From the IMG/VR virus record IMGVR_UViG_2695420600_000007: a stretch of 11,609 nucleotides of DNA; one strand, written 5' to 3'. A program made the position numbers and the translations under genes. A model generated the notes under the pieces. That model did no database searches and was not told where the DNA came from. It saw only the letters and a list, made by a program, of their open reading frames with translations. The stretch comes from a virus. Its lineage: Duplodnaviria; Heunggongvirae; Uroviricota; Caudoviricetes. This document shows, piece by piece, positions 1 to 11,609 of this stretch (its first letter is position 1; each line of letters begins with the position of its first letter).

Positions 1-36
1 TAACAGATGTCTGGAAATATAGGGGCAAATCCATTC
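1..36. repeat. Left copy of a perfect 36-bp inverted repeat (partner at 11570..11605)
   Basis: Positions 1..36 (TAACAGATGTCTGGAAATATAGGGGCAAATCCATTC) are the exact reverse complement of 11570..11605, checked base by base. The match is lost on the inward side of both copies; its outward extent is cut off by the window. Confidence 0.9.
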
Positions 37-478: not shown

Positions 479-3055
479 ATGAGTGATATTTTCTCAGGAA
501 GAGAATTATCAGTACAGTATAATGCTGATATTGGTAACAGAACACCACAGGGAGCAGGCAATGTAGTAATTAAACAGATTAATACTTTTCCAACCTTAAC
601 AATAAATTCAGAAGCAAATAATTTTGAAACGTATGATAGTGATTACAGGACAGTACTACTATCTGATAAATCAGTAGCACCATTTGATATTGTAGTTAAC
701 TACCTACCTGATGATCCTACACATCAATTCTTGGATAATGCCGCTAAGTCTCAGCAGCTTTTCCAGATCATCATTCAGTACCAGATGAATAAGGATGAAA
801 ATACCATTACTTATGCGATGGTGAATGGTTATATCACCTCTTATAAGTTGGACGGTGATAAAGGTTCAGTAGTAACCAAGGCATACAGTTTTGCCCCACA
901 TGATGTGATCGCACGTGCAATGACCATTAACGCACTATCGCCAATCTATCAGGGGGACTACGGTTTAGGTTCGAACACTACGGATGTACCTCAGTACTCA
1001 CCATCAGTACCTACGGGTAACAGCTTCATCAAAGTACCATCATCTCAAGCAGGCAATCCTGCCGGGGCGGATCTGATGGGAGTAGGGCTTGTAGATGGCA
1101 CTACTGTAAGTTCTCTTGCGATGACAAAGACGGGTACTCTAAGTATCTATGCAAAGAACGCTACAACCGCCTGGACACGCATATATACCGCTACACAGAT
1201 GGACGGGCGATACGTACCCCTTACACGTACCATCAACGGCCATGCACTCACGGCCAATTTAGTACTGAACAGTGAAGATACAGGTTCAGTACCTGATACA
1301 CGTACTGTGAATGGTAAGCCTCTAAGTGAGGATGTAGTACTTACCAGTACTGATACCGGCTCTGTACCAGATACACGGACAGTTAATGGTCATGTACTCA
1401 GTGAAGATATAGTACTGAGTAGTGAAGATACAGGTTCAGTACCTGATACACGTATGGTCAACGGTCATGTACTCAGTGAGGATGTAGTACTTACCAGTAC
1501 TGATGTTGGCTTAGGGAAGGTTACAGATGATGCCCAGCTTACGATAGCAGGTAATCTAAGTGATCTGGGGGACGTGGAAGAAGCACGTATTAACCTTGCT
1601 GTTTACTCAATGGATGAAGTAGATGCAGAGGTAACGGCTTTAGCTGACAGTATTACTTCCCTTGATTCCGCTTCCATGAAGAAAGCGAGTAACCTTTCTG
1701 ATCTATCCAGTCTCTCTACAGCACGTACTAACCTACAGGTGAACCGTTTGACTCAGGGTGCTACGTACACCGATCTGATGAGTAATGACCTGACTAACCG
1801 TATCCGAATTCAGGATAACGGGGCATGGGGTGCAAGTACTGGTACTGGATGGATTGCTTTAGGTATAGGTCAGGGGGGGACAGGGGCTACAGATGCTTTG
1901 AGTGCTCGCCTAAACTTTCAGGTGGATCGCTTTAATCAAGGTAGTAATTTAACAACTATTAAATCCGCTGATTCTTCCGCTGCATTAGTGGTTTATGATG
2001 GAGGGCAATGGGGTTCAGCTACATATATTGCGGGTGCTTTCACTGGCTGGAAAGCATTAGCAATTCCGCAGGGCGGTACTGGTGTTAAGACTCAGGCTGA
2101 GTTATGGCCTGCGATTCGTCCTACGGGTGCAACTTCTTTAGCAGGAGATCCTGTCTCTGATTCTGACGCGACTACCAAACGCTGGGTTGAAAACTTGCTG
2201 AGTAGTCGTACTTCAGTTAGTCCTCAATGGGATGTTATTGCTTCTTCCCCTTCCTCTACGGCAATTGGTAGTTATGTAACTGGAGGGCGTATTCGTTCGA
2301 TATGCAACATTGGTACATCAACTGAAATATCTGGTGGTTTTCGGGTTGGTAAAACGATGGGACAGACTGGACAGGCTGATCTCACCCTTTTTATTTCTGA
2401 AAATGGTGCAGAGGATAAACTATGGGGGCTAAAAGGGCCGACTGGAACGATCCTAACTGATGTTCAATCAGGATGGATGACTAATACCGCTGTTTCGGGA
2501 CCGACAGATGCCAATACCATCACCTTTAACGGTATGTATGCAGGGCCAGGTGACTCAGGTATTAACTATAGTGAAAAATATTCCCCTTTATTGCACATGC
2601 AAAGACACCCAGGGGCAAATCGCTCTCAGCTTCAGATAGACGGTGGTGGTACTTTAAGAGTACGAGGCGGGAACGGTACAACATGGTTTGGATGGTTAGT
2701 AATGCAAGCTCAAGGTACATCAGGTCGTGAGTTTAAAAGAGACATAACTCCAGCAAATCCAGTTGAAGCATTAGATCGGATAATGTCACAAGATTTAGTA
2801 ACGTTTATCTACAAGGATGATGAACAAGAAAGGGTTAGGTTTGGTGTTATCGCCGAAGATGCTGAGTTGACTGCTCCGCAGTACATTAAGCATGATGAAG
2901 AAACAGTTGAAATAGAAGGGGAGATTGTCACTCGTGATCATCCACGTGTTGATTTAAATCCAATAGTGATGGACTTGATGGGAGCTATTCAAGCCCAACA
3001 AGAAGAAATTAATCAGCTAAAAGATTTAGTACAACAGCTATTAAATAATAAATAA
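479..3055 (+). CDS. Tail fibre protein (858 aa): N-terminal domain paralogous to the tube protein, tandem fibre repeats, and a C-terminal intramolecular chaperone (peptidase S74-like) autoprocessing domain
   Basis: Long ORF with RBS AAAGGA at 465..470. The N-terminus MSDIFSG...NTF...VNYLPDD...GDKGSVVTKAYSFA aligns with the 3114..3587 protein (MAMDIFSG...NTF...VNYLPDN...GDKDEVVTKTFTLA). Four tandem 25-aa repeats (SVPDTRTVNG..LSEDVVLTSTDTG) resemble phage tail-fibre repeats. NLSDL...AR.NL and GGTG motifs are fibre-like. The C-terminus SGREFKRDITPANPVEALDRI...FIYKDDEQERVRFGVIAEDAE matches the S-D/G-x-R-x-K-x-(N/D)-I pattern of endosialidase-type chaperone domains. Confidence 0.85.
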   Translation: MSDIFSGRELSVQYNADIGNRTPQGAGNVVIKQINTFPTLTINSEANNFETYDSDYRTVLLSDKSVAPFDIVVNYLPDDPTHQFLDNAAKSQQLFQIIIQYQMNKDENTITYAMVNGYITSYKLDGDKGSVVTKAYSFAPHDVIARAMTINALSPIYQGDYGLGSNTTDVPQYSPSVPTGNSFIKVPSSQAGNPAGADLMGVGLVDGTTVSSLAMTKTGTLSIYAKNATTAWTRIYTATQMDGRYVPLTRTINGHALTANLVLNSEDTGSVPDTRTVNGKPLSEDVVLTSTDTGSVPDTRTVNGHVLSEDIVLSSEDTGSVPDTRMVNGHVLSEDVVLTSTDVGLGKVTDDAQLTIAGNLSDLGDVEEARINLAVYSMDEVDAEVTALADSITSLDSASMKKASNLSDLSSLSTARTNLQVNRLTQGATYTDLMSNDLTNRIRIQDNGAWGASTGTGWIALGIGQGGTGATDALSARLNFQVDRFNQGSNLTTIKSADSSAALVVYDGGQWGSATYIAGAFTGWKALAIPQGGTGVKTQAELWPAIRPTGATSLAGDPVSDSDATTKRWVENLLSSRTSVSPQWDVIASSPSSTAIGSYVTGGRIRSICNIGTSTEISGGFRVGKTMGQTGQADLTLFISENGAEDKLWGLKGPTGTILTDVQSGWMTNTAVSGPTDANTITFNGMYAGPGDSGINYSEKYSPLLHMQRHPGANRSQLQIDGGGTLRVRGGNGTTWFGWLVMQAQGTSGREFKRDITPANPVEALDRIMSQDLVTFIYKDDEQERVRFGVIAEDAELTAPQYIKHDEETVEIEGEIVTRDHPRVDLNPIVMDLMGAIQAQQEEINQLKDLVQQLLNNK
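1211..1510 (+). repeat. Four in-frame tandem 75-bp (25-codon) repeats inside the fibre gene
   Basis: Repeat units at 1211..1285, 1286..1360, 1361..1435 and 1436..1510. Perfect 34-nt direct repeats at 1271..1304 and 1421..1454, and perfect 30-nt direct repeats at 1325..1354 and 1475..1504, give a 150-bp super-period. Confidence 0.85.
2720..3052 (+). other. C-terminal intramolecular chaperone / autoproteolytic domain of the fibre (S74-like); predicted cleavage immediately before Ser748 (codon 2720..2722)
   Basis: Motif QAQGT|SGREFKRDI followed by ALDRI and FIYKDD..RVRFGVIAEDAE, then a C-terminal helical heptad-like tail (IQAQQEEINQLKDLVQQLL). Assigned from recalled family motifs, not from a search. 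Confidence 0.6.
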
Positions 3056-3113: not shown

Positions 3114-3587
3114 ATGGCTATGGATATTTTTTCCGGTGCTAACCTTACTGTAGAAGTAGGTTCAAGTGCTGGTAAAACAGTTGCTACTGACTTTGTAGAA
3201 GTACCAGAGGTAAACACCTTCAGTACTTCAGGCTTTGAAAGTACTGTAATTAGCGTAAAAACATTCAATAATGCTTATGATCGTAAGCTATTGGGTACTA
3301 AGTCAATCCCGGACATTTCTCTTGCAGTTAACTACTTACCAGATAATGCAGTACATCAGAATTTAGAACAACTTGCAGACGATCAGAAACGTTGTCAGGT
3401 AAAACTAAGCTATTTTACCGATGCAACTAAAAAAGAAGGTTTCTTTGTAATTTATACCTGCTTTGTTTCAAGTACCACTATCGGTGGTGATAAAGATGAA
3501 GTAGTAACTAAGACTTTCACCCTTGCAGTTGATGGTGAAGCAATTGATTCAGGTCTGATTACTCCAAAACCAGAATCGGGCGAATAA
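3114..3587 (+). CDS. Probable major tail (tube) protein, 157 aa
   Basis: Sits directly upstream of the chaperone pair and tape measure gene, the position of lambda gene V. Size and the N-terminal G-x-x-L-x-V-x-V-G pattern are typical of siphovirus tube proteins. RBS AAGGA at 3100..3104. Followed by a hairpin terminator, as is common for highly expressed tube genes. Confidence 0.6.
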   Translation: MAMDIFSGANLTVEVGSSAGKTVATDFVEVPEVNTFSTSGFESTVISVKTFNNAYDRKLLGTKSIPDISLAVNYLPDNAVHQNLEQLADDQKRCQVKLSYFTDATKKEGFFVIYTCFVSSTTIGGDKDEVVTKTFTLAVDGEAIDSGLITPKPESGE

Positions 3588-3938: not shown

Positions 3939-4333
3939 GAGGTGATATCGAATTAAAGTACTTTTGTAAGATGGTTAACAAAAGAGGCTTATCACCTGAA
4001 GAATACTTTAGTTTAGATCCTGATGTACTCAATATGCTTATGATCTACGATACTTTTATAGAACCATCCGGTACGCAGATTGAAATGATGAAACATGCGT
4101 ACCAGTGTTACTACACCACTATCAGTAATGGCAACCTAACACCAGAAGCAAGGAAAAGTATCAAGGTACAGGATTTTGATTTTCTTGATGTGCTTAGTGA
4201 TAGTACTAAGAGTACTTCAGAGAAAGCTGAAGAAAGAAAATTAAAAACTAAAGAGGCTCAATCCAATGATATTAAATCTATAGGGGAGTTAATTAAATCT
4301 CAGGTATTAGGAAAGAAAAAGAATGGCAAATAA
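3639..4333 (+). CDS. Tail assembly chaperone frameshift fusion product, gpGT-like (-1 shift at 3929..3935; the T-part frame ends at 4333)
   Basis: The downstream ORF (frame of 3971..4333) lies in the -1 frame relative to the G-like ORF and is open back to 3923, overlapping the slippery site. Its stop overlaps the tape measure start at 4323. Confidence 0.6.
3929..3935 (+). promoter_or_regulatory. Programmed -1 ribosomal frameshift slippery heptamer A_AAA_AAG
   Basis: In the zero frame the codons are gaA AAA AAG then TAA. A 7-A run at 3928..3934 is followed by G. The -1 frame is open from 3923 and continues into the 3971..4333 ORF, matching the conserved G/GT arrangement. Confidence 0.7.
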
Positions 4334-6536
4334 TAATAGAATACGTGTAGATATTACGGGTGATTCTTCCGGTTTACAGCGTGCTTTAAGGTCTGGTACT
4401 GAATCATTAGAGGAATTTGGTAGTACTGCTGGTGGCATTGTTGAAGAGTTCACAGGCCGAATAACTGGTATGGCTGGCGGGTTCGGTACTGCTATGACCG
4501 GGATCGCGGGTGCTGCGGCTATTGGTATTGGTGGCCTGGCAGCATTAGTAGAATCATCACGTGAATATGTGCGTGAAATGAACCAGATCAGTAAGAGTAC
4601 CGGATTGTCCGTGGTTCAGTTACAACAGCTATCAGCGGCGTTTAGTGGCCTCGGTCTTGAGATTGATAAGTTTGGTGATTTCAACAAGGATACCTTGGAT
4701 AAGCTCGGTGATGCTTTTCGTGCTGGCGGTGGTGTATCCGATGATCTTAAAGAATATGGACTCAACCTACAGGACTATAACAAGTACTTAAAACAGGCTG
4801 ATGGTGGTATGCAGGCTGTGATCCACACCTTTTACGCCATGCGTGATGCAGGTAAATCACAGAGTGAAATAGTTAACGTAATGGAAACGTTAGCCAGTGA
4901 CTCAAGCCACATGATTAGTACTCTTCAGCAGTTCAATAATGAGGCTCAAGCTACAGCCTATATCCAGTCACAAAATGCTGAAGTAACTAATGATGCTGCT
5001 GAAAAATATGCTGAATTCGATAAAAACCTTGGGAAACTTACTACCAGCATTAAAGGTACTATTGCTGATGGCCTATCACCTTTAGTTAATGCCATGAACA
5101 GTGTCTATGATGCTGCAAATCAAAAACCTCACGAGGCAGGTTTGTTTGAAGATCTGAATGAACGTATTAAAACTTCCAAGGGTTCTCTACAGGATATGTT
5201 GGATATCTGGGAAAAATTACGTACAGCAGGGGCATTAAACTACCAGGGTGCAGCACTCAATACTGGCATCATGGATGATAAGGGCAACAAGGGTAATGAG
5301 TTCGCTCAGGCTAAGGCACGTTTAGAAGAACTGGCAAACAACCTAAAGTCCGATGTTGCGGTTGCTACCGCTCCTACTGGCGGATGGGTTGATCAGGCAA
5401 AAGAAGCTGAAGATGCAGCGAAGAAGTTAGAACAACAACGTAAACAGGCAGAAGCGGCACAAAAGGCGGCAGATGCAAAACGCCTACAGGCTCAACGTAA
5501 TCTGGAAGCTGCTCTTGCTCAAGTTGGGGAAGATGGTTTTCAGGTACGTCTACAGCAGTTCGACAGACAACAAAAGGCACTTCTTAAAACCATCACCGAT
5601 AGTGCTCAAGTACTCGGTATCAATCCTGATGAAATGCTAAAGAACGCTACTGCATATGGTGCTAAACAACGTACTGATTTACTGAATTCAATGGTTGGTT
5701 ATCAAGATCCTAATCAGGGTCTGAAAGATACCAATGCTCTTATTGGTTCCGGTCTACTCAATGACAATCAGAAGGGGTATCTGGCACAGCAACAGAATCA
5801 GCGTATCAATGGTGGTAATCCATTAGCCTATAACGATACCGATCAGAAGTTGAAAGATAACGCTGATGCTATGAATGCTGAACTTCAGCAGAATGAGTTG
5901 TTGCTGAAAGGCCATGAGGACTATGAGAAACGTAAAGCTGAGATCACGGCAAAGTACAATGCACAGGCCATCCAAATCAGTAACCAGAATGCACAGGATC
6001 AGTTAAGTATCTTCTCAAGTACTGCACAGTCACTATCACAGGGCATGGTTGATGCGTTTGGGGAAAGTAGTGGGGCTGCACAAGCTGCATTTACCCTAAG
6101 TAAGAGCATAAGCATTGCACAGACAGTACTTTCAATTCAGTCAGCATTGGCCCAAGCACTCGCTACCCCTTGGCCAGCTTCATTGGCAAACTATGCACAA
6201 GTACTTTCACTTGGTATGTCGATTATTAGTACTGCAAAGGGTGCTGCTGCTGGTCAGTTCCATGGCGGGGTAGATGAACTACCAGCAAGTTATGACAACA
6301 AATCATTTGTACTTAAGCAGGGCGAGAGAGTGGTGCAGCCTGAAGCGAATAAGAAATTAACAGCATTCTTGGATAAACAAGAAGGTGGAAGTACTTCAGG
6401 TGATATTACCGTTAACGCACCATTGATCATCCAGGGTGATGTAGCTGATGATGACAAGAAATTTAATGAGATGCTTAAGAAACACGCCAATAGTGTTTCT
6501 CAAGCTGTGAGAAGTAGTCAAAAACGTAATACATAA
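4323..6536 (+). CDS. Tail tape measure protein, 737 aa
   Basis: Position after the G/GT pair. Gly/Ala-rich hydrophobic N-terminal segment (GMAGGFGTAMTGIAGAAAIGIGGLAAL), a long central Ala/Gln/Lys-rich helical region, and a C-terminal hydrophobic segment (ALATPWPASLANYAQVLSLGMSIISTAKGAAAG). Confidence 0.85.
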   Translation: MANNNRIRVDITGDSSGLQRALRSGTESLEEFGSTAGGIVEEFTGRITGMAGGFGTAMTGIAGAAAIGIGGLAALVESSREYVREMNQISKSTGLSVVQLQQLSAAFSGLGLEIDKFGDFNKDTLDKLGDAFRAGGGVSDDLKEYGLNLQDYNKYLKQADGGMQAVIHTFYAMRDAGKSQSEIVNVMETLASDSSHMISTLQQFNNEAQATAYIQSQNAEVTNDAAEKYAEFDKNLGKLTTSIKGTIADGLSPLVNAMNSVYDAANQKPHEAGLFEDLNERIKTSKGSLQDMLDIWEKLRTAGALNYQGAALNTGIMDDKGNKGNEFAQAKARLEELANNLKSDVAVATAPTGGWVDQAKEAEDAAKKLEQQRKQAEAAQKAADAKRLQAQRNLEAALAQVGEDGFQVRLQQFDRQQKALLKTITDSAQVLGINPDEMLKNATAYGAKQRTDLLNSMVGYQDPNQGLKDTNALIGSGLLNDNQKGYLAQQQNQRINGGNPLAYNDTDQKLKDNADAMNAELQQNELLLKGHEDYEKRKAEITAKYNAQAIQISNQNAQDQLSIFSSTAQSLSQGMVDAFGESSGAAQAAFTLSKSISIAQTVLSIQSALAQALATPWPASLANYAQVLSLGMSIISTAKGAAAGQFHGGVDELPASYDNKSFVLKQGERVVQPEANKKLTAFLDKQEGGSTSGDITVNAPLIIQGDVADDDKKFNEMLKKHANSVSQAVRSSQKRNT

Positions 6537-6546
6537 GAAAGCCCAG

Positions 6547-7119
6547 TTAGGGATTTTCCGTGTGATAAGACAAATATTGTGAAAGAGAAGATGAAAGGGT
6601 ATAGAGATTGTAATACTCTTCCCGCAATAATTTAACTTTAGGTGGTGAGTATTTAATATTGTATGCAAGCTGTGTTGAAAGAGTACGTAATCTCGATAAT
6701 GAATAATAACTCTTTACGATGGCATCTACTTCTTTTTTTGGGAGTGATGCTAATTTTTCTAATTGGGAATAATATACATCATCATGCAAATAAGAAACGG
6801 CAGTTGCTACTCTTTTAATAGCTTCTGTATCTTCAGTTGGAAGAGGAATACATATTTCATATGTGCCTAACACCTGAGACTCATCGCCACCAGTAGCAAG
6901 AGCTAAAAGGTTATTGTTGATTTCGCTCAATAAGATTACACGCATCTTAAAAACATCATCTGAACTTTCTTTCCATTTATCATATGCGTTATAGCCTATT
7001 TGGCCTGCAAATAACAACATAGCAACGATGACGGATGCAGCCTGCCAATCAAGCCTGTTAAAAAAAATACGAATCGAGGTTTTTAAATAAATAAAGAAAG
7101 AAGATATTCGAGGTAACAA
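6547..7119 (-). CDS. Hypothetical protein with a hydrophobic N-terminal segment; reverse-oriented accessory gene (moron) inside the tail module
   Basis: The only long ORF in the 584-bp gap between the tape measure and gpM-like genes, on the opposite strand. The region is visibly more AT-rich than its neighbours. ORF track start is TTG 7119; in-frame ATGs lie at 7020 and 6945, so the true start is uncertain. The N-terminus WQAASVIVAMLLFAGQIGY is hydrophobic. No recognisable family motif. Confidence 0.5.
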   Translation of the reverse strand: MLPRISSFFIYLKTSIRIFFNRLDWQAASVIVAMLLFAGQIGYNAYDKWKESSDDVFKMRVILLSEINNNLLALATGGDESQVLGTYEICIPLPTEDTEAIKRVATAVSYLHDDVYYSQLEKLASLPKKEVDAIVKSYYSLSRLRTLSTQLAYNIKYSPPKVKLLREEYYNLYTLSSSLSQYLSYHTENP

Positions 7120-7120
7120 A

Positions 7121-7678
7121 ATGGCATCCTTTTCAAATCAAATAAAAGTAACGAACTTTCAAATTAAAAGTACTGAACCGATCTATTCTAATCAAACATG
7201 GACAGGTCAACGTATCATGAGAAGTACTGGAATTCAATACTATCAAATTCAGTTCACCCTTAATTTTAATCCTGCATCACTAAATGAAGTGAATAGCTTT
7301 TTAGCTCAATATGCACAGGGCAAACCTTTCACTATGTCATTGGGGCTTGCAGGTACATATTACGGTAAACAGACTGGTGCAGTAACCGCTACTGCTCTCA
7401 CTAAACCGGGTAATATGGTTGTACCTATCAGTACTAACACATTAGCTGTGGGTGAGTGGGTACAGTTTTCCAATCACAATAAGCTATATCGAATCGTAGA
7501 ACGTACCAGTACTTCAATTACTATTTTCCCTGCTCTACAAAATACAGTACAGGCAAGTGAAGCACTCAAATATAACAATCTCATGATCGAGGCTGTATTA
7601 GATCCAGACAATGATTATTCATTGCCTATTGGGAACATCATGAATATTACATTGAAAGCAACGGAGAATATCATCTAA
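7121..7678 (+). CDS. Minor tail protein, gpM-like (distal tail region)
   Basis: Position after the tape measure gene. The segment SFLAQYAQGKPFTMSL resembles the lambda gpM motif ESFLEEHGGWKSFLWT. RBS GAGG at 7110..7113. Stop overlaps the next start (TAATG). Confidence 0.5.
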   Translation: MASFSNQIKVTNFQIKSTEPIYSNQTWTGQRIMRSTGIQYYQIQFTLNFNPASLNEVNSFLAQYAQGKPFTMSLGLAGTYYGKQTGAVTATALTKPGNMVVPISTNTLAVGEWVQFSNHNKLYRIVERTSTSITIFPALQNTVQASEALKYNNLMIEAVLDPDNDYSLPIGNIMNITLKATENII

Positions 7679-8300
7679 TGGACTCAGGTATATATACTAA
7701 TGCTAATCTTCTTAAGTACTGGAAGTTAGTCAGAGGTACAACCAAGACAAGATTAACACTAATGGAAATTATGAGCTTAGGCGTTAATGTTACTTGTTTT
7801 GATGTACTACCAAAAGGTACTAATGGTTTTCACTGGACGGATTCACTAATTGATATAGATCTGGATGGTTATAAGTACATAAGTTTCCCCGACATTATCA
7901 GTGGTTCATTACCTTCATATTCTGAACAAAAGGGCATGTCTAATGATGCTATCAATTTTAAAATTAGCAATGTAAACGCCTCGGTTCGTGCTCTTGCCCT
8001 TGGTGGTTTCTTGAAAGATGCACAGATGAATATCAAGTTAGTAATTCTCAATCCATATGATAGTACTGTAATTGATTCAATGCTCATGTTTACGGGGTTT
8101 ATTGACTATGTACAGGCAGTAACTGATCCAAATCAGAAGCAAAACGAAATGACTATATATGTGAATTCTGTCTATAAGAAATTAGACAGACAACCTGCAT
8201 TAATTGCCGCCAACTCAGTATATCAATCTTACTATAGAAATGATGAGTACTTTAGTCTGTTAGGTCAAGTTAATCAAAATCAGAACTGGAAATACAAGTA

Positions 8301-8301
<1 letters not shown>
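7678..8301 (+). CDS. Minor tail protein, gpL-like
   Basis: Coupled to its neighbours by TAATG overlaps at both ends. Size (207 aa) and position match lambda gene L. Similarity is loose and pattern-level only. Confidence 0.5.

Positions 8302-11609
<3,308 letters not shown>

What the first reader, a model, noticed from the sequence alone, without database searches (positions are those of the whole stretch)
2720..3052. Predicted self-cleaving intramolecular chaperone domain at the fibre C-terminus
The last 111 residues begin SGREFKRDI and contain ALDRI...FIYKDDEQERVRFGVIAEDAE, matching the conserved Ser-initiated motif of peptidase S74 chaperone domains (as in K1F endosialidase and T5 L-shaped fibre). 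These fold the fibre trimer and then release themselves by autoproteolysis at the serine. The mature fibre would therefore end at about residue 747.
Basis: partly seen in the sequence, partly recalled or inferred. Interest (0 to 1): 0.4.

Follow-up and report, generated by a model that had tools for sequence, protein, structure and literature searches.

The report
Self-cleaving chaperone domain on tail fibre
The last 111 residues of this prophage tail-fibre gene are an ordinary member of the well-known self-cleaving chaperone domain that helps phage fibres fold as trimers and then cuts itself off; the less usual feature is that the fibre starts with a tail-tube-protein domain.

Summary
ORF 479-3055 (+) encodes an 858-aa fibre, and its last 111 residues (S748-K858, nt 2720-3052) read exactly as quoted.

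Evidence that this is a Peptidase_S74 chaperone domain:
- It scores 38.5 bits against Pfam PF13884 (cut-off 22).
- It aligns to the C-terminus of the T5-like phage DT57C LtfA fibre at E about 1e-32.
- A profile that includes it retrieves MyRF ICA, S16 gp37, GA-1 gp12 and T5 pb1 from the PDB.
- A confident model (pLDDT 90.5) matches only the MyRF, K1F endosialidase and GA-1 chaperone structures.
- T747/S748/K753 align with T5 pb1 Thr1263/Ser1264/Lys1269. Ser and Lys(+5) are conserved in the relatives examined.
- A heptad-patterned C-terminal helix supplies the expected trimerising coiled coil.

Predicted products are a 78.9 kDa mature fibre (1-747) and a 12.8 kDa released fragment. Cleavage was not tested.

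It belongs to a T-S-G-x-x-[YF]-K subclade, with Gly where most members have Asp. I found no experiment on this subclade.

The gene sits on an 11.6-kb contig, probably from Shigella sonnei, that ends in IS2 termini on both sides, so the prophage is probably defective.

Residues 1-150 are a tail-tube-protein paralogue. I found no description of this fibre anchor.

The parts
479..3055 (+). Tail-fibre gene, 858 aa (91.7 kDa precursor). Mosaic layout: conserved N-terminal anchor, repeat shaft, variable tip, C-terminal chaperone.
   Evidence: ORF list and translation. Best relative is P0001, a Shigella sonnei 'tail fiber domain-containing protein', 97% identical. Mosaic coverage map against 118 homologues.
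479..928 (+). Residues 1-150: tail-tube-protein (TTP)-like domain, a paralogue of the downstream TTP gene.
   Evidence: 31% identity to ORF 3114-3587, E 6e-21. phrog_158 major tail protein, E 2e-10. The AF2 model hits 80alpha, lambda gpV, NF5, YDC107 and Sf11 tube proteins with probability 1.0.
929..1222 (+). Residues about 151-248: second, very conserved N-terminal segment (YQGDYGVGSN...GNSFIKVP...TAWTRIYTATQ), with a small beta domain at about 182-235.
   Evidence: Many columns are at least 90% conserved in alignment A2. AF2 strands 182-235 have pLDDT about 80-86. Function not determined.
1223..1522 (+). Four 25-residue fibre repeats (T-R-T-V-N-G-x-x-L-S-E-D-V-V-L-T-S-x-D-T-G-S-V-P-D), residues 249-348.
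   Evidence: Read from the translation. TRF finds a 75-bp unit x3.0 at 1277-1504. The cleavage serine lies 25 residues later in P0001 (position 773 against 748), which fits one extra 25-residue repeat; the extra repeat itself was not checked.
1523..2098 (+). Residues 349-540: shaft, shared with a falling fraction of homologues.
   Evidence: Coverage map. PHROG tail-fibre hits over residues 362-515.
2099..2719 (+). Residues 541-747: distal tip, the presumed receptor-binding part. It begins with a junction motif (res 538-582) shared with DT57C LtfA and ends at T747.
   Evidence: Only about 7 of 118 homologues share the tip. The junction matches DT57C LtfA 542-585. Best phage hit is SDYTW1-F1-2-2_3, 46.7% identity over residues 551-858. 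The receptor-binding role is inferred from position only.
2717..2722 (+). Predicted scissile bond T747|S748.
   Evidence: Aligned with T5 pb1 Thr1263|Ser1264 (PMC4690869). T, S and G are invariant in 61 subclade sequences.
2720..3052 (+). Residues 748-858: Peptidase_S74 intramolecular chaperone domain, predicted released fragment 12.8 kDa. S748 is the nucleophile (2720-2722) and K753 the general base (2735-2737).
2954..3052 (+). Residues 826-858: long C-terminal helix with a heptad pattern, the expected trimerising coiled coil. Its end resembles the family-wide tail ...QIDELKALVQSLLDNK.
   Evidence: AF2 helix at model residues 91-121, pLDDT above 90. 8 of 10 a/d positions are hydrophobic in the best register. 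Conserved tail seen.
3114..3587 (+). Plain tail tube protein (157 aa). Context gene and paralogue of the fibre's N-terminus.
   Evidence: PF08813, E 2.8e-8. phrog_158, E 5.8e-19.
1..33 (.). IS2 terminal inverted repeat at the left contig end (context).
   Evidence: It is the reverse complement of 11573-11605. Megablast hits to IS2.
11573..11609 (.). IS2 terminal inverted repeat at the right contig end. It cuts the gpJ-like ORF that starts at 8698 (context).
   Evidence: 100% identical to IS2 ends in many records. phrog_31 'central tail fiber J' matches the cut ORF.

Best explanation
Residues 748-858 form an S74-type intramolecular chaperone (IMC/ICA) domain at the C-terminus of a prophage side-fibre protein. 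The likely mechanism has three steps. First, three precursor chains associate through the C-terminal coiled-coil helix (res 826-858) and the alpha/beta body of the domain; this nucleates and registers folding of the trimeric tip and shaft upstream. Second, once the trimer is correctly folded, K753 activates the hydroxyl of S748, which attacks the T747-S748 peptide bond. Third, the 12.8-kDa fragment, which carries S748, leaves. The mature fibre ends at T747 (78.9 kDa per chain) with its receptor-binding tip uncovered. Shown here: the sequence, family membership, predicted fold, conservation and alignment of the Ser/Lys dyad and the P1 Thr, and the heptad helix. Inferred from homologues (T5 pb1, K1F endoNF, MyRF): chaperone action, trimer-dependent cleavage and unmasking of the tip. 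In this particular genome the gene lies on an 11.6-kb tail-module contig that ends in IS2 termini at both sides, so it may not be expressed in a productive phage.
For: Family and fold:
- Pfam PF13884 scores 38.5 bits against a cut-off of 22.
- DT57C LtfA C-terminus aligns at E 7.7e-32 within the whole protein and 7e-34 for the domain alone, about 60% identical.
- Profile A1 retrieves from the PDB: MyRF ICA 1.6e-19, S16 gp37 6.7e-17, 8jov 3.7e-13, GA-1 gp12 CTD 1.7e-9, 7y5s 1.2e-7 and T5 pb1 4.9e-7.
- The AF2 model has pLDDT 90.5.
- By Foldseek the strongest match is 7dc3 (TM 0.72, E 5e-6), followed by 3gw6 and 3gud (E 2-3e-3, probability 1.0). The next hit is at E 0.09.

Catalytic residues:
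- S748 and K753 are invariant among 20 diverse C-terminal domains.
- Ser and Lys(+5) are kept in 139 of the 151 aligned hit segments from the exhaustive search. The other 12 are gapped or truncated at that point, or carry Cys.
- Direct alignment puts T747/S748/K753 on T5 Thr1263/Ser1264/Lys1269.
- T5 S1264A and MyRF S587A or K592A abolish cleavage (PMC4690869; PMC8326128).

Other:
- The C-terminal helix is heptad-patterned.
Against: - No experiment exists for this protein.
- The residue after the serine is Gly, not the Asp found in 18 of 20 diverse relatives. It is also Asp in T5, MyRF, S16 and GA-1.
- For the S-G subclade I found only a prediction of cleavage for DT57C LtfA/LtfB. The 8hqz model covers only the LtfA N-terminus.
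- The upstream 'sensor' arginine (endoNF R897, T5 R1250) cannot be placed with certainty. R727 and R729 lie 5-7 residues further from the serine than in T5.
- The structure was predicted as a monomer, although the real domain is an intertwined trimer.
- The IS2-flanked context suggests the gene may be silent here.
Confidence: 0.85

Rival explanations
1. The domain has the S74 fold but is not released. It stays on the fibre as a permanent C-terminal trimerisation cap, because the Asp-to-Gly change next to the serine, or the lack of a correctly placed upstream arginine, disables or greatly slows cleavage.
For: Gly replaces the near-invariant Asp at +1. No experimental cleavage was found for any S-G type domain. 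The Arg candidates R727 and R729 are spaced differently from T5 R1250.
Against: T-S-G-x-x-[YF]-K is invariant at T, S, G and K across 61 sequences of the subclade, mostly 50%-identity cluster representatives. Such conservation is hard to explain if the dyad were idle. In MyRF the upstream stalk does not take part and cleavage still occurs (PMC8326128), so an upstream Arg is not obligatory.
Confidence: 0.08
2. The gene is a relic. The domain is intact in sequence, but the prophage is defective, so no fibre is made and the domain has no present function in this strain.
For: Both contig ends are IS2 termini. The gpJ-like gene is cut at 11572, and IS2 lies about 36 bp upstream of the probable start (ATG at 69) of the gene that precedes the fibre gene. 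A 622-aa truncated relative occurs in S. sonnei genomes (P0002).
Against: The 858-codon ORF is uninterrupted. Near-identical copies (97%) stand for 92 member sequences. This rival concerns expression, not what the domain is or how it works, and it can be true together with the main explanation.
Confidence: 0.5
3. The resemblance to S74 is a chance match of a short Ser...Lys motif in a helical C-terminus.
For: None beyond the shortness of the Pfam model (58 positions).
Against: E-values run from 1e-9 to 1e-34 over the whole 111 residues, and the fold match is independent evidence.
Confidence: 0.01

Closest known systems
C-terminal chaperone domain of LtfA (and LtfB) of T5-like phage DT57C (PDB sequence 8hqz_d; Golomidova et al. 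2016, PMC4728585)
   Same: About 60% identical over the whole domain. Same T-S-G-x-E-[YF]-K-[KR]-D-[IV] start, same FxYKDDEQERVRFGVIAE core, and the same position at the end of a lateral fibre.
   Different: The fibre bodies are unrelated apart from a short junction motif. LtfA is anchored by an N-terminal lasso in the LtfC collar, whereas this protein is anchored by a tube-protein-like domain. Cleavage of LtfA is predicted, not shown.
[quoted passage not shown]
   Same: Same family (profile E 4.9e-7). Thr-Ser scissile pair with Lys at +5, aligned column for column. Coiled-coil helix plus alpha/beta body. Lateral fibre of a siphovirus.
   Different: T5 has S-D, a longer domain (133 aa) with 50-Angstrom 'tentacle' hairpins, and R1250 14 residues before the serine. 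Here the motif is S-G, the domain is 111 aa, and the candidate Arg lies at -19 or -21.
K1F endosialidase (endoNF) C-terminal intramolecular chaperone (PDB 3GW6), founding member of MEROPS S74
   Same: Fold match with probability 1.0. Ser911/Lys916 dyad with the same +5 spacing (PMC8326128).
   Different: Not found at the sequence level at E<=0.01. It sits on a tailspike with enzymatic activity, not on a fibre.
MyRF ICA domain (PDB 7DC3), eukaryotic homologue
   Same: Best structural match (TM 0.72) and profile E 1.6e-19. S587/K592 dyad and C-terminal coiled coil.
   Different: A membrane-bound transcription factor. Its cleavage does not depend on the upstream beta-helix.
Decorated tail tube proteins (lambda gpV with its Ig-like C-domain) and the T5/DT57C distal tube-like ring (p140/TTMP) that carries the fibre collar. 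These bear on the N-terminal anchor, not on the finding itself.
   Same: The N-terminal 150 residues have the tube-protein fold. The gene lies immediately upstream of the plain tube gene. In DT57C a tube-like ring at the tube-tip junction is where the lateral fibres attach.
   Different: Here the tube-like domain and a complete trimeric fibre with a chaperone are one polypeptide. I found no solved structure or paper describing this.

Membership tests
Peptidase S74 / intramolecular chaperone (Pfam PF13884) | Profile score above Pfam's gathering threshold | tested here: met
   38.5 bits on the domain and 34.2 bits on the whole protein, against a cut-off of 22. The public record of this exact protein also carries PF13884.
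Peptidase S74 / intramolecular chaperone (Pfam PF13884) | Nucleophilic Ser at the N-terminal boundary of the domain (endoNF S911, T5 S1264, MyRF S587) | tested here: met
   S748 is invariant in A1, aligned with T5 S1264 and kept in 139 of 151 aligned hit segments.
Peptidase S74 / intramolecular chaperone (Pfam PF13884) | General-base Lys five residues after the Ser (endoNF K916, T5 K1269, MyRF K592) | tested here: met
   K753 is invariant and aligned with T5 K1269.
Peptidase S74 / intramolecular chaperone (Pfam PF13884) | Characteristic fold: alpha/beta body, beta-hairpin and a long C-terminal helix | tested here: met
   AF2 pLDDT 90.5 with elements H26-35, E38-41, E52-55, H57-63, hairpin E68-89 and H91-121. 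The only significant Foldseek hits are 7dc3, 3gw6 and 3gud.
Peptidase S74 / intramolecular chaperone (Pfam PF13884) | C-terminal trimeric coiled coil that drives trimerisation | tested here: inconclusive
   The helix is predicted with high confidence, and 8 of 10 a/d positions are hydrophobic. Oligomeric state was not modelled.
Peptidase S74 / intramolecular chaperone (Pfam PF13884) | Location at the extreme C-terminus of a phage fibre or spike protein, after the receptor-binding part | tested here: met
   It forms the last 111 of 858 residues of a protein that matches several PHROG tail-fibre families, inside a tail gene module.
Peptidase S74 / intramolecular chaperone (Pfam PF13884) | Upstream Arg from a neighbouring chain that senses correct trimer folding (endoNF R897, T5 R1250; not used in MyRF) | tested here: inconclusive
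   The candidate 'GTLRVRGG' (R727, R729; D721) resembles T5 'GSGRVKQ' but lies 5-7 residues further from the Ser. A trimer structure is needed.
Peptidase S74 / intramolecular chaperone (Pfam PF13884) | Asp directly after the Ser (S-D-x-x-x-K). This is common but is not one of the two dyad residues named in the papers read. | tested here: not met
   Gly749. Among the hits the split is 61 S-G to 72 S-D, and S-G is fixed in the closest subclade, which includes DT57C LtfA.
Peptidase S74 / intramolecular chaperone (Pfam PF13884) | Actual autoproteolytic release, and dependence of fibre folding on the domain | not testable with these tools
   Requires expression, SDS-PAGE and mass spectrometry, plus S748A and K753A mutants.
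Siphovirus tail tube protein (for the N-terminal domain, residues 1-150) | Tube-protein fold and sequence relation to a bona fide TTP | tested here: met
   E 6e-21 to the neighbouring TTP. phrog_158, E 2e-10. Foldseek probability 1.0 to many TTPs. No Pfam TTP family was reported for the whole protein at E<=0.1.
Siphovirus tail tube protein (for the N-terminal domain, residues 1-150) | Assembly into a hexameric ring that is part of, or stacks on, the tail tube | not testable with these tools
   Needs cryo-EM of virions from an intact relative.

The most novel reading that the evidence does not exclude
The chaperone domain is conventional, but the fibre that carries it is anchored in a way I could not find described. 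Its first 150 residues are a tail-tube-protein paralogue, encoded just upstream of the plain tube gene. These domains may form a specialised ring of the tail tube, most plausibly at the tube-tip junction. That would make it the one-polypeptide equivalent of the T5/DT57C tube-like ring, collar and fibre. Trimeric fibres would then project from this ring, which requires six-fold ring symmetry to be reconciled with three-fold fibres. More than 100 enterobacterial prophage proteins share this anchor and carry exchangeable tips, most of them ending in S74 domains.
Probability: 0.45. Interest if true: 0.55.

Novelty: new member of a known kind. Interest (0 to 1): 0.2.

Why it matters
For the finding itself the value is mainly correct annotation. 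The mature fibre should be modelled and expressed as residues 1-747, and the 12.8-kDa C-terminal piece should not be mistaken for the receptor-binding tip. Any attempt to produce or re-target this fibre must keep the chaperone in cis. The S-G subclade, about 60 cluster representatives including T5-like LtfA proteins, lacks a direct cleavage experiment as far as I could find, so one simple experiment would settle a whole group. The wider interest lies in the N-terminal tube-protein anchor. It defines a large family of mosaic prophage fibres in Enterobacteriaceae that appears not to have been studied.

Tried and rejected
- NCBIfam gave no family for the fibre or its C-terminal domain.
- A single-sequence phmmer search of the PDB found only DT57C LtfA and a weak S16 gp37 match. 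A profile was needed to reach T5 pb1, MyRF and GA-1. endoNF was reached only through the fold search.
- Megablast of the window against phage records and complete E. coli genomes matched nothing but the IS2 ends. The element is therefore not a known phage and is not present in those E. coli genomes.
- Rfam found no RNA family in the window, and no terminator-like site lies around the gene's end. The short minus-strand ORFs inside 2720-3052 (40-48 aa) were dismissed as frame noise under a strongly supported coding region.
- Four literature searches for a tube-protein-anchored fibre found nothing relevant. The library is limited, so this is not proof of absence.
- The N-terminal profile has no PDB relative at the sequence level.
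- The weak GldM_2nd Pfam hit (below its cut-off) falls on the 25-residue fibre repeats and was not pursued.
- The DT57C cryo-EM paper was checked for evidence of LtfA C-terminal processing. It has none, because only the N-terminus was resolved.
Full report
**Observation.** ORF 479-3055 on the + strand encodes 858 residues. Translating 2720-3055 gives 111 residues plus a stop. The serine is residue 748.

**Is it an S74 chaperone domain?**
- Pfam PF13884 (Peptidase_S74, 'chaperone of endosialidase') matches residues 749-797. The score is 34.2 bits in the whole protein and 38.5 bits (E 1.4e-9) on the isolated domain, against a gathering score of 22.
- Against PDB sequences, residues 742-853 align with residues 953-1071 of LtfA, the lateral tail fibre of T5-like phage DT57C, at E 7.7e-32. 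The domain alone gives 7e-34.
- I aligned the C-terminal domains of 20 diverse homologues (A1). The only invariant positions are S748, K753, G789 and the final Lys.
- A profile built from A1 retrieves MyRF ICA (1.6e-19), S16 gp37 (6.7e-17), 8jov (3.7e-13), the GA-1 gp12 C-terminal domain (1.7e-9), 7y5s (1.2e-7) and T5 pb1 (4.9e-7).
- An AlphaFold2 model of residues 736-858 has mean pLDDT 90.5. It shows an alpha/beta body, a beta-hairpin and a 31-residue C-terminal helix.
- Foldseek against the PDB returns the MyRF ICA domain (TM 0.72, E 5e-6), the K1F endosialidase chaperone 3GW6 and the GA-1 chaperone 3GUD, all at probability 1.0. The next hit is at E 0.09.
- Family membership is therefore supported independently by sequence and by fold.

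**Catalytic site and cleavage position.**
- I translated T5 ltf from NC_005859 and aligned it to the A1 profile together with the query.
- T747/S748/K753 fall in the same columns as T5 Thr1263/Ser1264/Lys1269, with maximal posterior probability.
- In T5 the Thr1263-Ser1264 bond is the one cleaved, S1264A blocks processing, Lys1269 activates the serine, and the serine leaves with the chaperone (PMC4690869).
- In MyRF, S587A and K592A abolish cleavage, and these residues correspond to endoNF S911 and K916 (PMC8326128).
- By homology the mature fibre ends at T747 (78.9 kDa) and the released piece is 12.8 kDa.
- The C-terminal helix has 8 of 10 a/d positions hydrophobic in its best heptad register. 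This fits the trimeric coiled coil that drives trimerisation in the solved homologues.

**What differs from the textbook case.**
- The residue after the serine is Gly, whereas 18 of the 20 A1 members have Asp. T5, MyRF, S16 and GA-1 also have Asp.
- An exhaustive phmmer search of 1.84 billion representatives gave 189 hits at E<=1e-3. Of the 151 aligned hit segments, 61 carry T-S-G-x-x-[YF]-K and 72 carry S-D-x-x-x-K.
- All 61 sequences of the S-G subclade keep T, S, G and K without exception. S-G is therefore a conserved subclade trait, not decay in this locus.
- I found no experiment on an S-G type domain. Cleavage of DT57C LtfA and LtfB is predicted from the motif (PMC4728585). The DT57C cryo-EM model resolves only the N-terminus of LtfA (PMC10713586).
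- The upstream folding-sensor arginine (endoNF R897, T5 R1250) cannot be assigned. The query has 'GTLRVRGG' (R727, R729) with D721, which resembles T5 'GSGRVKQ' but lies 5-7 residues further from the serine.

**The rest of the protein.** Compared with 118 homologues, the protein is a typical mosaic.
- Residues 1-260 are shared by all homologues, 260-540 by a falling share, the tip 541-735 by about seven, and the chaperone by about 44.
- Residues 249-348 are four 25-residue repeats, seen at the DNA level as a 75-bp tandem array at 1277-1504.
- Residues 1-150 are a paralogue of the tail tube protein encoded next door at 3114-3587 (31% identity, E 6e-21). They also match phrog_158 'major tail protein'.
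- A model of residues 1-262 (pLDDT 73.7, and 80-93 across much of the tube-like core) matches the tube proteins of 80alpha, lambda, NF5, YDC107 and Sf11 at probability 1.0.
- No PDB sequence is related at the sequence level.
- Nearly all of the 120 best homologues start with this same domain. They come from Escherichia, Enterobacter, Citrobacter, Klebsiella, Salmonella, Cedecea, Kosakonia, Erwinia and other genera.
- Among 50,697 phage records only one, DCP80, has the domain, at 25% identity and annotated 'hypothetical protein'.
- Four literature searches found no description.

**Genomic context.**
- The window is a whole 11,609-bp contig, CXCN01000131.1 of assembly GCA_001251255.1. The closest proteins are named Shigella sonnei.
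- It carries a siphovirus tail module: a 131-aa-type gene, the fibre, the tube protein, two chaperone-like ORFs, a tape measure (4323-6536), a distal tail protein (7121-7678), a tail protein (7678-8301), DUF6950 (8301-8705) and a gpJ-like protein from 8698.
- Both contig ends are the same terminal inverted repeat of IS2, in opposite orientation. The gpJ-like ORF is cut by it.
- An intact but distant relative (about 65% nucleotide identity) is a ~33-kb prophage in yegD of E. coli NZ_CM151386.1. It has the same gene order, preceded by terminase, portal, capsid and head-tail joining genes.
- The Shigella copy is therefore probably part of a defective prophage. That bears on whether the domain is used, not on what it is.

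**Verdict.** This is an ordinary new member of a well-characterised domain family, so the interest is low. The remaining uncertainty is experimental: whether S-G type domains really cleave. The feature most worth following up is outside the finding's coordinates, namely the tube-protein-like N-terminal anchor of this fibre family.

Noticed in passing
window 479-1264 (residues 1-262 of the fibre): The fibre begins with a tail-tube-protein fold that is paralogous to the adjacent tube gene. A second, highly conserved ~100-residue segment follows. More than 100 enterobacterial prophage proteins share this anchor, but only one deposited phage (DCP80, unannotated) does. I found no paper and no solved structure.
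   Followed up: partly
window 1-33 and 11573-11609: Both ends of the contig are the same IS2 terminal repeat in inverted orientation. The right-hand one truncates the gpJ-like ORF that starts at 8698. The left-hand one lies about 36 bp upstream of the probable ATG (position 69) of the first gene. The tail module is therefore bracketed by two IS2 copies.
   Followed up: partly
window 3005-3052 (last ~16 residues) and the homologues listed: C-terminal domains that are otherwise very different end in almost the same peptide (...QIDELKALVQSLLDNK; here EEINQLKDLVQQLLNNK). A conserved 3' end next to a conserved tube gene could serve as the downstream anchor for swapping tip cassettes by recombination.
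   Followed up: no
window 1277-1504: There is a 75-bp tandem repeat (3 copies at 75% match; 4 at the protein level, residues 249-348). In the 97%-identical S. sonnei relative P0001 the cleavage serine lies 25 residues later, which suggests one extra repeat and a variable copy number; the repeat count in P0001 was not checked directly.
   Followed up: partly
window 6547-7119, minus strand: A 190-aa ORF on the opposite strand is wedged between the tape-measure and distal-tail-protein genes. It has a hydrophobic N-terminus and matches phrog_3829 (unknown function). The E. coli relative L002 has no minus-strand gene at that place. It looks like a moron-type insertion.
   Followed up: no
window 2090-2224 (residues 538-582): A short motif (AELWPAIRPTGATSLAGDPVSDSDATTKRWVENLL) matches DT57C LtfA 542-585 at E 6e-7, although the flanking sequences are unrelated. 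It lies exactly where homologue coverage collapses, so it is probably a shaft-tip recombination joint.
   Followed up: no
L003 (Escherichia phage DCP80, PQ671644) 8763-13136: This record is classified as Straboviridae/Gaprivervirus, yet the region has lambda-like head genes and two consecutive ORFs (698 and 745 aa). The 698-aa ORF carries the tube-like N-terminus. A second match in the record, whose position was not listed, may be the neighbouring 745-aa ORF. The record may be chimeric or misclassified.
   Followed up: no
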